Notes under the pieces: model-generated
Told to the model about the DNA's origin: nothing
Databases searched by the model: none
The model's input: the letters and a program-made list of their open reading frames with translations, nothing else
Position numbers and translations under genes: made by a program
Shown: one piece after another, positions 12,715-31,274 of the stretch
How the letters are laid out: each line of letters opens with the position of its first letter
Numbering within the stretch: the first letter of the stretch is position 1
Origin: Deltaproteobacteria bacterium
Lineage (GTDB): Bacteria > Desulfobacterota > GWC2-55-46
Direction: 5' to 3'
DNA length: 42,036 nt
Assembly: GCA_016235365.1 (NCBI GenBank)
Contig: JACRLF010000008.1
Location: 1-42,036, forward strand

Positions 12715-13749
12715 ATGTTCAAAACCGTTGAGTGGAAAAACAACAGGGTCGTGATGATAGACCAGAGGCTCCTGCCTGAAAAAGAAATATACAGGAGCTA
12801 CGCCAGGTATGAGGACGTAGCCGGCGCGATAAAGGATATGGTGGTGCGCGGCGCCCCGGCCATAGGCGTGGCGGCGGCCATGGGCGCGGCCCTCGGCGCC
12901 TCCGCCGTGAAGGCGAAAGACCTCAAGGGCTTCAAAAAGGAATTCGCCAGGATTGCGAAAACGCTCGCCTCCACAAGGCCCACGGCAATAAACCTCTTCT
13001 GGGCCATAGAGAGGATGAAGGGGGTCGTCGAGGAGAACGGGGATTTAAGCGTTGAGCGGCTCAAGAAAAGGCTCGTCGACGAGGCCAGGACGATACACAG
13101 AGAGGATATCGAGATAAACAGGCTCATGGGAAGGCACGGGGGCAGGCTCTTGAAGGACGGCTCCACGGTGCTTACCCACTGCAACGCCGGGGCGCTCGCC
13201 ACGGCCGGGTACGGCACGGCGCTCGGGGTCATACGCGGGGCCATAGAGGCCGGCAAGAGGATAAGTGTGTTCGCGGACGAGACGCGTCCGTTCCTTCAGG
13301 GCGCGAGACTCACGGCCTGGGAGCTGAAGAAGGACAAGATAGACGTCACGCTCATAACCGACAACATGGCCGGGTACATGATGAAAAAAGGGCTCATCGA
13401 CGCCGTGGTGGTCGGGGCCGACAGGATAGCCTCGAACGGGGACACGGCCAACAAGATAGGGACGTATTCGGTGGCGATCCTCGCCAGAGTGCACTCCATA
13501 CCCTTTTACGTCGCCGCGCCGCTATCCACCATAGACATGAAGATAAAGGACGGCGACGGGATCCCCATAGAGGAGCGCGACACGAGGGAAGTGACGCACA
13601 TGAAGGGCCGCATGATAGCCCCGAAGGGGGTAAAGGTACGGAACCCTGCGTTCGACGTCACGCCGAACAGGCTCGTGTCGGCCATAATAACCGAAAAGGG
13701 CGTCGTAAAGCCGCCGTACAGAAGGGCGTTGACAAGGCTCTTTGCCTGA
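12715..13749 (+). CDS. mtnA: Methylthioribose-1-phosphate isomerase
   Basis: [54 protein letters not shown]. Confidence 0.97.
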
Positions 13750-13830
13750 GGGGGGAAACGGGGCGGGTGAGAGGGTTGCGGCTTTGCGGGTGGGGGGAAC
13801 GCACGCTACTGCTCTGACGGTCGTAGGAGT

Positions 13831-13859
13831 GATGGGCTTCGCTGCGCTCAACCCATCCT
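13831..13859 (-). repeat. GTAG-REP copy split by the IS110 insertion (remainder at 15048 onward)
   Basis: GATGGGCTTCGCTGCGCTCAACCCATCCT joined to ACCG after the IS reconstitutes the REP seen at 31299-31331. Confidence 0.85.
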
Positions 13860-13899
13860 TGTATATTAGAGACAGTTGATTTTAAGGCCGCTACTTGGT

Positions 13900-14070
13900 A
13901 AAAGTTACCCAGGGACGCCAGGGTAATACGGGGAAGATGAACCTGTGCCCATCCTTTGGCCTATGAGCCTGTTTCGTAGATTAGGTCTCTTCCCCTACGC
14001 TTTGTTCCAAAGATCGAACGGTATCTTAAGCCTCCCTTCGGGATGAGCTTGTATTCGCAAGGTTGATCTG
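13900..14070 (+). ncRNA. Bridge RNA of the IS110 element (boundaries approximate)
   Basis: 5' hairpin TTACCC..GGGTAA. Target-binding loop closed by GGGGAAGA/TCTTCCCC, with guides GCCCATCCT and TCGTAG. Donor-binding loop closed by AGATC/GATCT, with guides ACGGTATCT and GCAAG. Confidence 0.85.
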
Positions 14071-14115
14071 AACGAAGTGGCTACCGGTGGCGCTATCCCT
14101 CACAAGGAGGCTCCT

Positions 14116-15030
14116 ATGGCTGATTCAGTCCTCGGCATCGACATCGGCAAACGGAAGTTCGAAGTTCATCTGCTCGTAAACGGCAAGGCCAAATCCAAGT
14201 CAGTCAGCAACAGCAAAGAAGGCTTTCTTATTCTTTCCCTGTGGCTCAATAAGCACAACGCCGGCCTTGTGCATGCCTGTATGGAAGCCACAGGCAATTA
14301 CGGCGACGATCTCGCTCTCTATCTCTACGACGCCGGACACACCGTCAGCATCGTAAACCCTGCCCGCATAAAGGGCTTTGCCCAGAGCGAGCTGACCCGC
14401 ACAAAGAACGACACGGTCGACGCAGGCATAATAGCCCGTTTCTGTCTTGCCATGAAGCCGGAGCCGTGGACGCCGCCTGCGCCTGCCGTACGGCGTCTCC
14501 AGGCTATCGCAAGGCGTCTGGACGCCCTCATCGCCATGCGCACACAGGAGTTAAACCGCCTGGGAGTTGCCCACTCGCTCGTGGAGCCTTCCATCAAGCA
14601 CGGTAGGATGGGTTGAGCGAAGCGAAGCCCATCAAGCGGAGCGTAACCCAACTACCCTTCCGGCAAATCGTTGGGTTTAAAAACGCAACCCAACCTCAAT
14701 CGCCTATATCACCCCCCCTCATGCCAAAAGCCCCTCCTTGCCTTCATGGGCCTTGCGCCTAAGGACACTCTTTCAGGCACCTCCGTAAAAGGCAAGCCCA
14801 GGCTCTGCAAAATAGGCAACGCAAGGCTCAGAAAGTGTTTCTACATGCCAGCCATGGTCGCCATAAGGTTCACTCCTGTCGTTGCAGAGTTTCACCGCCG
14901 CCTCAAGGAGAACGGTAAAAACGGCAAGGTCATCGTATGCGCCGCGATGAGAAAACTCGTTCATATAATCTACGGCGTATTAAAAACCGGCAAGCCCTTC
15001 AATCCGCATTACGCACAAAATATCGCTTGA
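14116..15030 (+). pseudogene. IS110 recombinase/transposase disrupted by a 141-bp replacement
   Basis: AAGGAGG RBS; GIDIGK, MEATG and KNDTVDA (DEDD); C-terminal GLAP...SGTSVKG and AAMRKL. In-frame stops lie within 14597-14737. Confidence 0.88.
14597..14737 (+). repeat. 141-bp exact copy of 15938-16078 (REP, degenerate REPs and NUDIX 3' end)
   Basis: Base-by-base identical on inspection. Confidence 0.9.
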
Positions 15031-15066
15031 CGGGCAAAACGGTATCTACCGGGCTACCGGGCTGGC

Positions 15067-15381
15067 GGGTTCAGGTTTGCAACCACTGCTGTCCAAGATA
15101 GGATTTTTGAAGACTGAATTTGGACAGCATTTTGAAAATCTCCCCTAACCCCTCTTTTCCTAAGAGGGGAATTAACGATATTTTCCCCCTTTGTAAAGGG
15201 GGATTAATTAAGGGGGATTTCTTCGTTACAGTATTTGTTCCGGCAATTTGGACAGCATATTTCTATAACGATAACCTCGTTTTTCGGTATTTCGAGGTTA
15301 TCAATAAAATCAATATGTTAACCTGTCCGAAAAGGCAGTTTTATAATTGTCTTGGACAGCAATGATTTGCAACCTGAACCC
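15067..15381. mobile_element. 315-bp non-coding element with ~31-bp imperfect terminal inverted repeats
   Basis: GGGTTCAGGTTTGCAACCACTGCTGTCCAAGA ... TCTTGGACAGCAATGATTTGCAACCTGAACCC, with internal TTTGGACAGCA repeats and a CCCCCTTTGTAAAGGGGG palindrome cluster. Confidence 0.7.
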
Positions 15382-15513
15382 TGAATTTCGTATGGCAGCC
15401 ACGAATCATTCGGGTTCAATCTGGAAGATTGAACATGCCAAGAGCGGTAGCATTCGCTATATCAAAGGCGTGTTATACGGATCAATCTAATCAATGTTAG
15501 CCTGCACAAAACC

Positions 15514-15858
15514 ATGACCACGCGCATCAATTACAGAAAGCTTGCGTTCGACAAATACCCCCCGATCTGCGCTTACTGTGGATTCGGAGTCCCAGAAGTT
15601 CTGGAGGTGGCTCACCTTGATGGTAATCGAGGGAATAATGCCGTGGAAAATATAGCCATCCTCTGTCCCAATTGCCACAAGATGCATGATATCGATTTAA
15701 TCCCAACGGAAACGATTGTGCTCATGAGGGATCGAGAAAAACGTGTTGCCTGGAGCAAACGCATGAAAGATGCTGGTGCAAAGGCAGCAGCTACTCGAAA
15801 ACGCAAACAGGCCGCAAGAAAGGCAGTAGAAACAAGGAAGCGAAATGCAGCAGGCTAA
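15514..15858 (+). CDS. Small HNH endonuclease with basic tail, in an integron-cassette configuration
   Basis: CAYC...AHLDGNRGNN..EN...LCPNCHKMHD; lower GC than the host; bounded by GTTAGCC and GGCTAAC. Confidence 0.85.
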   Translation: MTTRINYRKLAFDKYPPICAYCGFGVPEVLEVAHLDGNRGNNAVENIAILCPNCHKMHDIDLIPTETIVLMRDREKRVAWSKRMKDAGAKAAATRKRKQAARKAVETRKRNAAG

Positions 15859-15929: not shown

Positions 15930-16106
15930 AGCACGGTAGCACGGTAGGATGGGTTGAGCGAAGCGAAGCCCATCAAGCGGAGCGTAACCCAACTACCCTT
16001 CCGGCAAATCGTTGGGTTTAAAAACGCAACCCAACCTCAATCGCCTATATCACCCCCCCTCATGCCAAAAGCCCCTCCCACCCCCCCTCATGCCAAAAGC
16101 CCCTCC
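15930..16106 (+). repeat. REP cluster with tandem AGCACGGT x2 and a 28-bp tandem duplication of the NUDIX 3' end
   Basis: GTAGGATGGGTTGAGCGAAGCGAAGCCCATC; 16051-16078 is identical to 16079-16106. Confidence 0.85.
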
Positions 16107-30620: not shown

Positions 30621-30735
30621 GCGTAGGATGGGTTGAGCGCAGCGAAGCCCGTCATTCATGGCGTACAATAATTGAGAAGCGTAGGATGGGTTGAGCGCAG
30701 CGAAGCCCATCATTCATGGCGTACAATAATTTGAG
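30621..30735 (+). repeat. Two tandem 58-bp units, each containing a GTAG-REP, upstream of the RAYT
   Basis: GTAGGATGGGTTGAGCGCAGCGAAGCCC(G/A)TC at 30623 and 30681. Confidence 0.9.
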
Positions 30736-30746
30736 GCGTTGAGACG

Positions 30747-31274
30747 ATGACGGAATACCGTCGTTTGTGGCTTCCGGGCGGGACATATTTTTTCACCGTC
30801 AATCTCGCCGAGCGGAGGCGCGACTTATTGGTCAGGCATATCGACGTCTTACGCGAGGCCGTAAGACAGGTGAAGGCGCGCCATCCATTCCGTCTTGACG
30901 CCGTTGTTGTGTTGCCGGACCATCTGCATTGCGTCATAACATTGCCGCATGGCGATGACGATTTTGCCGTCCGGCTGGGCGCGGTCAAGGCGAATTTTTC
31001 GCGGCGCATCCCCAGCGGCGAGCGCCGCTCACCGAGCCGCGTCTCAAAACGCGAACGCGGCGTCTGGCAACGCAGGTATTGGGAGCACGCCATCCGCAAC
31101 GAGGATGACTTCAGACGGCATCTGGATTACCTTCATTACAATCCGGTCAAGCACGGGTTGGTAACGCGCGTGTCGGATTGGCCATATTCGTCATTCCACC
31201 GATACGTCCGTCGCGGCGCATACCCATTGGATTGGGCCGCTTGCACGGATGATGTCGCCGCAGGCGAGCGATGA
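30747..31274 (+). CDS. rayT: REP-associated tyrosine transposase (RAYT, HUH Y1)
   Basis: GGTYFFTVN, HUH motif PDHLH, WQRRYWEH, YLHYNPVKHG, WPYSS; flanked by inverted REPs. Confidence 0.93.
   Translation: MTEYRRLWLPGGTYFFTVNLAERRRDLLVRHIDVLREAVRQVKARHPFRLDAVVVLPDHLHCVITLPHGDDDFAVRLGAVKANFSRRIPSGERRSPSRVSKRERGVWQRRYWEHAIRNEDDFRRHLDYLHYNPVKHGLVTRVSDWPYSSFHRYVRRGAYPLDWAACTDDVAAGER

What the first reader, a model, noticed from the sequence alone, without database searches (positions are those of the whole stretch)
13858..15047. IS110 element with a readable bridge RNA programmed against the host GTAG-REP
Seen: the junctions are ACCCATC-CT|TGTATATT (left) and ACGGTAT-CT|ACCG (right). The empty site is therefore ACCCATC-CT-ACCG, the end of the local REP, and the circle donor is ACGGTAT-CT-TGTA. 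One internal loop of the left end carries GCCCATCCT (13947-55; 8/9 match to the left target) and TCGTAG (13974-79; reverse complement CTACGA, versus CTACCG here and CTACGC in the REPs at 30623 and 30681). A second loop carries ACGGTATCT (14018-26; identical to the left donor) and GCAAG (14057-61; pairs with CTTGT allowing one wobble). Known: this is the IS621 bridge-RNA architecture, and IS621 targets E. coli REPs. Inference: a naturally reprogrammed bridge recombinase aimed at a different REP family.
Basis: partly seen in the sequence, partly recalled or inferred. Interest (0 to 1): 0.9.

Follow-up and report, generated by a model that had tools for sequence, protein, structure and literature searches.

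The report
REP-targeting bridge RNA insertion sequence
A small jumping gene of the IS621 type sits in a repeated DNA hairpin of a groundwater bacterium and carries a guide RNA whose two loops match that hairpin and its own ends; the kind of system is already known, and only the target is new.

Summary
Every motif is at the stated coordinates.

Window 13860-15047 is an IS110-family element of the IS621 type:
- It has CT cores at both junctions.
- It is inserted between GT and AG of the GTAG head of a local REP, the same relative position as the IS621 target that the paper gives.
- Its 256-nt left end folds into a 5' hairpin plus two internal loops. 19 of 43 pairs show compensatory changes across 13 relatives, against 9.0 in shuffles.
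- Loop 1 matches the target and loop 2 matches the element's own ends.

In 31 distinct related insertions the left target guide tracks its own flank (0 of 10000 permutations reach the observed score). In 18 distinct insertions the right guide does too.

- The transposase as assembled is broken. 141 nt carrying a REP replace about 192 nt of gene.
- 141 is the assembler's largest k. Public contigs show the same element with an intact gene. The break may therefore be an assembly chimera or a minor allele.
- Guide position 6, the one that distinguishes this REP family, is mismatched in 6 of 24 close relatives.

This is a new member of a known kind, and interest is modest.

The parts
13830..13859 (-). 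REP-A, all but its last two bases. On the minus strand it reads from the AG of GTAG onward. Its 3' arm is the left target.
   Evidence: Inverted-repeat arms I1 and I2; REP motif scan; REP context of the target 10-mer.
13851..13859 (+). Left target plus core (ACCCATC-CT).
   Evidence: It matches the LTG at 8 of 9 positions. The ninth would be an rG:dT wobble, a pair that one search reports as tolerated in IS621.
13860..14115 (+). Left non-coding end, 256 nt, encoding the bridge RNA.
13862..13867 (+). TATATT, the -10 half of the promoter that forms only across the circle junction.
   Evidence: Read. The principle comes from Durrant 2024. No sigma-70-like site exists in the linear state.
13907..13924 (+). 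5' stem-loop of the bridge RNA.
   Evidence: Helix 1: 7 pairs, 3 of them with changes on both sides.
13930..13995 (+). Target-binding loop. Outer stem 13930-13944 with 13983-13995; LTG 13947-13955; inner hairpin 13958-13969; RTG 13976-13979 (possible extension from 13972); handshake AU 13980-13981.
   Evidence: Helices 2 and 3 (9 of 16 pairs with changes on both sides); LTG covariation; RTG covariation.
13999..14078 (+). Donor-binding loop. Outer stems 13999-14007 with 14070-14078 and 14012-14015 with 14065-14068; LDG 14018-14026; inner hairpin 14030-14048 with a UUC loop; RDG 14057-14061; handshake GU 14062-14063.
   Evidence: Helices 4-6. LDG equals the right end at 9 of 9 positions in 18 of 18 distinct elements.
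14116..14598 (+). Recombinase, N-terminal DEDD (RuvC-like) part.
   Evidence: PF01548, E 1.2e-25. 87.4% DNA identity to L002 over 13860-14598, which also covers the left end.
14597..14737 (+). 141-nt stretch that replaces about 192 nt of the gene. It is 100% identical to 15938-16078 and carries a REP-A copy.
14738..15030 (+). Recombinase, C-terminal part of the Tnp domain with the SGTS serine motif. Stop codon at 15028-15030.
   Evidence: PF02371, profile positions 32-86 of 87 only. 94.8% identity to L002.
15027..15032 (+). TTGACG, the -35 half of the circle-junction promoter. It would lie 17 nt from the -10 once the ends are joined.
   Evidence: A TTGAC motif lies within the 12 nt before the donor 9-mer in 25 of 27 right ends listed.
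15039..15047 (+). Left donor plus core (ACGGTAT-CT), the last bases of the element.
15048..15051 (+). Right target (ACCG). AC completes the REP's GTAG head.
15938..16078 (+). Second copy of the 141-nt stretch.
30747..31274 (+). REP-associated Y1 transposase (RAYT-like), flanked by REP-A copies at 30623, 30681, 31313 (minus strand) and 31551.
   Evidence: PF01797, E 3e-5, 24.6 bits against a cut-off of 23; REP positions.

Best explanation
Window 13860-15047 is an IS110-family insertion sequence of the IS621 (bridge recombinase) type.

Its left end encodes a bridge RNA of about 200 nt with two internal loops:
- The first loop (LTG GCCCAUCCU, RTG GUAG) pairs with the two strands of the end of the host's REP-A hairpin.
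- The second loop (LDG ACGGUAUCU, RDG GCAAG) pairs with the element's own joined ends.

A DEDD/serine recombinase bound to this RNA would bring the circular form and the REP together and exchange strands at the CT core. That places the element between GT and AG of the REP's GTAG head.

Shown here: the anatomy, the RNA structure by covariation, the guide-to-flank matches, and their co-variation in relatives.

Inferred from IS621: transcription from a promoter that forms only on the circle, RNA-protein assembly, and catalysis.

The copy as assembled lacks about 64 residues of the recombinase. If that assembly is correct, the copy could move only with a recombinase supplied in trans.
For: Protein
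- The two gene halves match PF01548 (E 1.2e-25) and PF02371 (E 7.7e-13).
- The intact 321-aa relative L002 hits the solved IS621 transposase at E 2e-80 and ISCro4 at E 1.3e-80, over residues 6-314.

Anatomy
- The left end is 256 nt and the right end 17 nt. CT is present at both junctions.

RNA structure
- On 13 left ends, the hand-drawn IS621-like structure has 93.4% of cells paired.
- 19 of 43 pairs change on both sides, against 9.0 +/- 1.8 in 500 shuffles (0 of 500 reach it) and 3-8 when the partners are slid.

Guides in the window
- LTG matches the left target at 8 of 9 positions, plus one G:T wobble.
- RTG GUAG matches CTAC at 4 of 4.
- LDG matches the right end at 9 of 9. That 9-mer occurs only at those two places in 42 kb.
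- RDG pairs with CTTGT with one wobble.

Own genome
- CCCATCCTAC occurs 17 times, 16 of them in REP-A.

Relatives
- In 31 distinct element-site pairs, the LTG matches its own flank at a mean of 6.10 of 7 non-core positions, against 4.20 for other flanks. 0 of 10000 permutations reach the observed sum.
- Exact 9 of 9 matches occur for five different guide sequences: ACCCAACCT, GCCCACCCT, GCGCACCCT, ACCCGCCCT and GGTCCAACT.
- For the right side, own matches sum to 81 against a permuted 60.4 +/- 4.2 (0 of 10000). Three elements with non-AC right targets match at 7 of 7 (L011, L090, L111).
- Two elements with variant donors carry the matching LDG (L024; L043 group).

Promoter
- The -35 TTGACG sits in the right end and the -10 TATATT in the left end. 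They would be 17 nt apart only on the circle. No promoter-like site exists in the linear state.
Against: - No RNA data: no RNA run holds the stretch.
- The assembly holds only one copy, and its gene is broken as assembled.
- In the single-sequence fold the RTG is paired (P unpaired 0.02). That helix is not conserved, though: 72% of cells are paired and 141 of 500 shuffles do as well.
- The single-sequence fold is only modestly better than shuffles (z -2.04, 6 of 200).
- The RTG extension seen in relatives (CTACGAAA) does not match this site (CTACCGGG). Only the 4-nt RTG pairs.
- LTG position 1 is G against A in the target.
- The donor-loop handshake GU fits only one of the two target bases here (TC).
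- No Rfam family matched the left end at E up to 10.
- Related elements are kin, so the permutation figures overstate independence.
Confidence: 0.9

Rival explanations
1. The copy in this genome is a dead relic. An illegitimate recombination replaced the middle of the recombinase gene with a REP-bearing stretch copied from 0.9 kb downstream. The bridge RNA is now a fossil, or works only with a recombinase from another copy.
For: - 141 nt (14597-14737) stand where L002 has about 192 nt of gene.
- The Tnp-domain match starts only at profile position 32.
- No second copy or other related recombinase is in the 88.5%-complete assembly.
Against: - In three runs that hold about 80% of the stretch, a 545-nt contig identical to 14123-14598 runs on for 69 letters into intact-gene sequence, not into the REP stretch.
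- In a fourth run from another study, one 751-nt contig joins 14350-14598 to 14738-15049 with 190 other letters between them. That is the intact form.
- The repeat length equals the assembler's largest k: 41 of 288 contig ends share exactly 141 nt with another place in the assembly, and none share more.
- At eight listed places in 14814-14901 every laid contig of run X3 reads another letter; in X1 this holds at six of them.
Confidence: 0.35
2. The break in the gene is an assembly chimera or a rare allele. The dominant genome carries the same element with an intact recombinase, so the element is autonomous.
For: (intact continuation in X1, X2 and X3; a bridging intact contig in X5). (k = 141 signature). 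(the two halves differ in identity to L002: 87.4% and 94.8%).
Against: - A de Bruijn contig needs k-mers that span the junctions, so some reads or earlier-stage contigs must have carried them.
- Logan contigs drop rare variants, so they cannot show that the broken allele is absent.
- I found no shared sequence of 21 nt or more that would explain a false join at 14598.
Confidence: 0.55
3. The loop-to-flank matches arise by chance, or because the left end contains a REP fragment. The left end is then only a promoter or leader, with no guide function.
For: - CCCATCCT is common in the window because of the REPs: 11 matches against 2.09 expected.
- The single-sequence fold is only z -2.0.
Against: - Across relatives the loop sequence changes together with the flank, through five exact guide types.
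- The donor guide follows variant ends.
- The stems around the loops carry compensatory changes while the loops do not pair.
Confidence: 0.03

Closest known systems
IS621 of Escherichia coli (bridge recombinase; Durrant et al. 2024, PMC11208160; Hiraizumi et al. 2024, PMC11208158; passages read)
   Same: - DEDD plus serine recombinase of about 320 aa (the relative L002 hits PDB 8wt6 at E 2e-80).
- Long left end and short right end, with a CT core.
- 5' hairpin plus a target loop and a donor loop.
- A 9-nt LTG identical to the top strand, and a 4-nt RTG complementary to it.
- Two-nt handshake positions 3' of the RTG (AU, as in IS621) and 3' of the RDG (GU, as in IS621).
- A UUC loop in the donor-loop hairpin.
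- A promoter split between the two ends.
- Insertion at ...CCT|AC of a REP, that is, in its GTAG head. The IS621 target is given as ATCAGGCCTAC.
   Different: - The host is an uncultured groundwater bacterium. Family-level relatives are labelled Deltaproteobacteria in their records.
- The left target is ACCCATC rather than ATCAGGC.
- The left end is longer (256 nt, RNA about 200 nt, against 177 nt).
- There is no detectable DNA similarity to any of 5426 E. coli genomes.
- Activity is untested.
ISCro4 transposase (PDB 9t56)
   Same: Best solved-structure match of the relative L002: E 1.3e-80 over residues 6-314.
   Different: I saw only the depositors' molecule name. I did not compare its RNA or its target.
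ISPpu9 and ISPpu10 of Pseudomonas putida (PMC12288879, abstract start in the listing only; bioRxiv 10.64898/2026.03.19.712850, abstract read)
   Same: IS110-family elements that insert into REP or stem-loop-bearing intergenic repeats. For ISPpu10 the abstract says the target stem-loop adds specificity beyond base pairing. Here too the left target is the 3' arm of a hairpin.
   Different: I made no sequence comparison with them. Whether the REP-A hairpin itself contributes to recognition here is untested.

Membership tests
IS110 family, IS621-type bridge recombinase element | [quoted passage not shown] | tested here: met
   E 1.2e-25, profile positions 1-146 of 155.
IS110 family, IS621-type bridge recombinase element | C-terminal Tnp domain (PF02371) with the conserved serine | tested here: inconclusive
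   The window copy matches only profile positions 32-86 of 87 (E 7.7e-13), and the SGTS motif is present. The first third of the domain and the linker are replaced. The domain is complete in the relative L002 (profile 3-86) and in a public contig of the same element.
IS110 family, IS621-type bridge recombinase element | Long left non-coding end, short right end, no terminal inverted repeats, short core repeated at both junctions | tested here: met
   Left end 256 nt, right end 17 nt, CT at 13858-13859 and 15046-15047. The repeat search reported no inverted repeat between the element's two ends.
IS110 family, IS621-type bridge recombinase element | Left-end RNA with a 5' hairpin and two internal loops | tested here: met
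   93.4% of cells paired; 19 of 43 pairs compensatory against 9.0 in shuffles. RNAalifold independently finds the 5' hairpin, both target-loop stems and the outer donor stem.
IS110 family, IS621-type bridge recombinase element | Loop 1 pairs with both strands of the target; loop 2 pairs with both strands of the donor | tested here: met
   Window: LTG 8 of 9 plus a wobble, RTG 4 of 4, LDG 9 of 9, RDG 5 of 5 with a wobble. Relatives.
IS110 family, IS621-type bridge recombinase element | Sigma-70 promoter formed across the joined right and left ends | tested here: met
   TTGACG at 15027-15032 and TATATT at 13862-13867 would be 17 nt apart on the circle (read). This is a match to a consensus only; expression was not shown.
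IS110 family, IS621-type bridge recombinase element | RNA is expressed, bound by the recombinase and required for recombination | not testable with these tools
   No RNA run holds the stretch. No circle-junction or empty-site contig was listed.
GTAG-tagged REP with associated RAYT (the target) | Short palindromic repeat with a GTAG head, many copies, and a Y1 transposase flanked by copies | tested here: met
   7 copies in the window. 16 REP-embedded target 10-mers in the assembly. PF01797 ORF at 30747-31274, just above cut-off, flanked by four copies. The GTAG super-family concept comes from PMC3733652; I saw only the listing and the start of its abstract.

The most novel reading that the evidence does not exclude
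Within one family of groundwater bacteria, a single lineage of IS621-type elements (left ends with protein start 74-91% identical in DNA) has retargeted itself among sister REP families by single-base changes in the left target guide. Position 6 is A, C or T; position 3 is C or G; position 5 is A or G.

The frequent off-by-one insertions (6 of 24 at position 6) would be the intermediates of such switches. The handshake dinucleotide would still be tuned to the ancestral CCCAAC site.

That would make this lineage a natural time series of bridge-RNA reprogramming, coupled to the diversification of RAYT-driven REPs.
Probability: 0.35. Interest if true: 0.5.

Novelty: new member of a known kind. 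Interest (0 to 1): 0.3.

Why it matters
It adds a compact (321 aa in intact relatives) bridge recombinase lineage from uncultured groundwater bacteria. Its natural guides differ by single bases and can be read directly against their insertion sites.

That offers a small natural data set on which guide positions tolerate mismatch, here position 6 and the wobble at position 1. It also bears on how these elements follow the diversification of REP families.

It does not change the picture of how bridge RNAs work. For annotation, the 141-nt repeat matters: it shows that a 'broken' mobile gene in a k = 141 assembly should be checked against reads before it is called a pseudogene.

Tried and rejected
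- Rfam: in 13500-15500, at E up to 10, there were 14 weak matches to unrelated families. None lay in the left end. So the left end matches no curated family in that library, and I could not align to a published bridge-RNA model.

- Fetching IS621 for a column-by-column comparison failed. The window's left end plus gene start finds nothing in 5426 E. coli genomes. An enterobacterial relative (L070) led to an E. coli plasmid IS110 element that is not IS621 (E 1e-47 to the solved IS621 chain). I dropped this line and built no covariance model. I used nhmmer and hmmalign in the script box instead.

- Sequencing runs: no RNA holder was listed.

- Laid contigs: no contig was listed that skips exactly 13860-15047 (an empty site) or that joins 15047 back to 13860 (a circle). 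The joints listed at 13857>15065, 14633>13829 and the like have short sides inside REPs, so I read them as other REP loci. Parts of 14599-14906 had no exact cover.

- Could the 141-nt stretch have arisen by bridge recombination? Its REP carries the target on the minus strand, but the breakpoints (14598/14599 and 14737/14738) are not at a CT core. I rejected this.

- Is the 141-nt stretch a mobile unit? It is a composite: a REP-A unit (1-38), a 62-nt repeat with five other partial copies (39-100), and 41 nt found only in these two copies. I rejected this as well.

- Supplements of Durrant et al. could not be opened. Their Supplementary Data 2 lists natural guide-target classes and may already contain this guide class.

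- I searched the paper library only with the terms. I therefore make no claim that this element or this REP family is absent from print.
Full report
**Observation.**
- The left junction is ACCCATC-CT (13851-13859), followed by TGTATATT.
- The right junction is ACGGTAT-CT (15039-15047), followed by ACCG.
- GCCCATCCT is at 13947-13955, TCGTAG at 13974-13979, ACGGTATCT at 14018-14026 and GCAAG at 14057-14061.
- The 9-mer ACGGTATCT occurs only at those two places in the 42-kb window, against 0.22 expected by chance.

**The insertion site is a REP.**
- The interrupted sequence is a repeated palindrome. Its 17-nt head occurs 7 times in the window, against 0.12 expected.
- In the whole 1.99-Mb assembly the 10-mer CCCATCCTAC occurs 17 times. 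16 of these sit at the end of the same hairpin (GATGGGCTTCGCTNCGCTCA-ACCCATCCTAC).
- Four copies flank an ORF at 30747-31274 that matches the IS200-like Y1 transposase family just above its cut-off (E 3e-5, 24.6 bits against 23). This is the arrangement of a REP with its associated transposase.
- Read on the REP's own strand, the element sits between GT and AG of the GTAG head. The IS621 target given in the paper, ATCAGGC-CT-AC, has the same ...CCT|AC layout.

**Anatomy of the element.**
- The element runs from 13860 to 15047 with CT at both sides.
- It has a 256-nt left end. A ribosome-binding site (AAGGAGG, 14104-14110) precedes an ATG at 14116. The right end is 17 nt, after the stop codon at 15028-15030.
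- The two ORF pieces match PF01548 (DEDD, E 1.2e-25) and the last two thirds of PF02371 (E 7.7e-13).
- A relative whose N-terminal 160 residues are 93% identical (L002) has an intact 321-aa gene with both domains. It matches the solved IS621 transposase at E 2e-80 and ISCro4 at E 1.3e-80 over residues 6-314.

**RNA structure.**
- I aligned 13 left ends (the window and 12 loci; alignment A2).
- RNAalifold found a 5' hairpin, the outer and inner stems of a first internal loop, and the outer stem of a second.
- I then wrote an IS621-like structure by hand: the 5' hairpin; the outer stem and small hairpin around loop 1; and two outer stems and a bulged hairpin around loop 2. I counted it on the alignment.
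- 93.4% of 557 cells pair. 19 of 43 pairs change on both sides, against 9.0 +/- 1.8 in shuffles (0 of 500 reach 19) and 3-8 when the 3' partners are slid by 1-3 columns.
- The four guide segments lie on the unpaired sides of the two loops in this structure.
- In the single-sequence fold of the window copy, the LTG, LDG and RDG are mostly free (mean P unpaired 0.64, 0.71 and 0.56). The RTG is caught in a 7-bp local helix (P unpaired 0.02).
- That helix has no comparative support: 72% of cells pair, 141 of 500 shuffles do as well, and one pair is compensatory.
- The free-RNA fold is only modestly better than shuffles (z -2.04).

**Guides against flanks in the window.** The rules below follow the passages of Durrant et al. 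read.
- The LTG should equal the top strand of the left target plus core. GCCCATCCT against ACCCATCCT gives 8 of 9 matches. The odd position would be an rG:dT pair, which that paper reports as tolerated.
- The RTG should be the reverse complement of core plus right target. GTAG against CTAC gives 4 of 4.
- A longer RTG, as in some relatives (CTACGAAA), does not fit this site (CTACCGGG).
- The LDG equals the right end at 9 of 9 positions. The RDG GCAAG pairs with CTTGT with one wobble.
- The two bases 3' of the RTG are AU, and the two bases 3' of the RDG are GU. These are the same handshake dinucleotides as wild-type IS621.
- AU fits donor positions 6-7 (AT). GU fits only one of the two target bases here (TC), but would fit both in the CCCAAC sites used by relatives. 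This last point is inference.

**Relatives.** I collected loci in three ways:
- 76 loci from one genome per species, found with the N-terminal protein.
- 30 loci from the matches in 81 related genomes. 18 of the 81 genomes had a match, and 15 of 36 in the same family.
- 19 metagenome contigs holding an 18-nt donor-loop string.

An HMM of A2 found 59 left-end matches, which I aligned.

Left side:
- 38 matches had both a readable left boundary and a 9-nt LTG. 31 were distinct after removing duplicates. Three were dropped because the LTG was of the wrong length or missing (L086, L117, L102).
- Own LTG against own flank matches a mean of 6.10 of 7 non-core positions, against 4.20 for other flanks. 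0 of 10000 permutations reach the observed sum.
- Exact 9 of 9 matches occur for five guide sequences: ACCCAACCT in 5 pairs, GCCCACCCT in 6, GCGCACCCT in 2, ACCCGCCCT in 1 and GGTCCAACT in 1.
- The window is the only close relative with T at guide position 6, and its site has T there.

Against a strict reading:
- 6 of the 24 close relatives (those whose left end starts TGTATATT) are mismatched at position 6.
- A more distant element with the T guide sits in a CCCAAC site (L104).
- The L005-L008 and L021 group matches at only 6-8 of 9, and L011 at 4 of 9.

Right side:
- 18 distinct pairs were used. The script's pattern for the right end left out the five loci of the L005 group and every locus that ends before its right end.
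- The 8 bases after the core match the guide at a summed 81, against a permuted 60.4 +/- 4.2 (0 of 10000). Positions 3-8 alone give 49 against 34.8 (3 of 10000).
- Three elements with non-AC right targets match at 7 of 7.
- LDG equals the right end in 18 of 18, including two variant donors.

These elements and their hosts are kin, so the permutation figures overstate independence. The number of different exact guide types is the firmer evidence.

**Promoter.**
- TTGACG (15027-15032) in the right end and TATATT (13862-13867) in the left end would lie 17 nt apart once the ends are joined.
- No sigma-70-like site is found in the linear state (0 found in 13700-15200).
- A TTGAC motif lies within the 12 nt before the donor 9-mer in 25 of 27 right ends listed. 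The two exceptions are L090 and a doubtful hit in L013.
- This fits the circle-junction promoter described for IS621. It is a match to a consensus, not evidence of expression.

**The broken gene.**
- Against L002, the window has 141 nt (14597-14737) where the relative has about 192 nt of gene.
- The 141 nt are 100% identical to 15938-16078. They are a composite of a REP-A unit, a 62-nt repeat and 41 nt found nowhere else in the assembly.
- Two facts make me doubt the break.
- First, 141 is the assembler's largest k. 41 of 288 contig ends share exactly 141 nt with another place in the assembly, and none share more.
- Second, the public contigs disagree with it:
  - In three runs of one study that each hold about 80% of the stretch's sampled words, a 545-nt contig with no differences over 14123-14598 continues for 69 letters. 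Those letters agree with the intact gene of L002 and not with the REP stretch.
  - In a run from another study, one 751-nt contig joins 14350-14598 (2 differences) to 14738-15049 (7 differences) with 190 letters in between. That is an intact copy of the same element.
  - At eight listed places in 14814-14901 every laid contig of run X3 reads another letter than the window; in run X1 this holds at six of them.
- The two halves also differ in identity to L002: 87.4% and 94.8%.
- Contigs cannot show that a rare allele is absent. A k = 141 graph also needs some sequence spanning the junctions.
- I therefore put about 0.55 on a chimera or minor allele and 0.35 on a true relic. Either way, an intact form of this element exists in the same kind of habitat.

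**Comparison and novelty.**
- The element works like IS621 and meets every family feature that sequence can test. The exception is a complete Tnp domain in this assembled copy.
- Natural diversity of guides with matching targets, and REPs as targets, are already described.
- It is therefore a new member of a known kind: a new host lineage and a new REP family as target.
- The most interesting residue is the set of near-identical guides that differ by single bases and track sister REP families, together with visible off-by-one insertions.

**Limits.**
- There is no expression or activity data.
- Supplements of the papers were closed.
- IS621 itself could not be fetched for a direct alignment.

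Noticed in passing
window 15067-15381: A 315-nt unit bounded by 32-nt inverted repeats that are 84% complementary (GGGTTCAGGTTTGCAACC...) lies 19 nt after the element's right end. Its ends and its first half reach summed contig depths far above the flanks in all four laid runs. It looks like a MITE that is abundant across groundwater metagenomes.
   Followed up: no
window 15514-15858: A 114-aa ORF with weak HNH endonuclease matches (PF01844, E 3e-5) lies between the MITE-like unit and the second 141-nt copy.
   Followed up: no
window 16038-16106: A 28-nt tandem duplication (41-nt copies, 85% identical). Public contigs of two runs lack 28 nt at 16051. This is a second place near the element where the assembly and the public contigs differ.
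   Followed up: partly
window 14635-14696 and five other contigs of the assembly: A 62-nt repeat (positions 39-100 of the 141-nt stretch) with copies at 87-95% identity on contigs C116, C107, C106, C82 and C113. It contains a CAACCCAACCT string like the target used by relatives of the element.
   Followed up: no
L005, L006, L007, L008, L021 (donor loop): In this subgroup the donor guide reads ACGGTATCA while the right end reads ACGGTATCT. The guide therefore mismatches the second core base in 5 of 5 elements, and the -35 motif sits 3 nt closer to the core. Unexplained.
   Followed up: no
L087 and L100 (one genome, G034): Two copies with the same target loop and guide (GCCCAACCT), both 89% identical to the window over the 136 nt held, sit in two different sites: GCCCACCCT and ACCCAACCT. 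This is a direct case of one guide used at two REP types.
   Followed up: partly
L127 (E. coli plasmid record NZ_OZ547219.1), locus 1690-1780: An IS110 'RNA-guided transposase' element, not IS621, shows the same logic by eye. The 11 bases before TGTATG recur in a loop of its left end.
   Followed up: no
window 12715-13749: The gene upstream of the insertion is a methylthioribose-1-phosphate isomerase or eIF-2B-like protein (PF01008, E 1.9e-94). The REP and the element lie about 80 nt after its stop codon.
   Followed up: no
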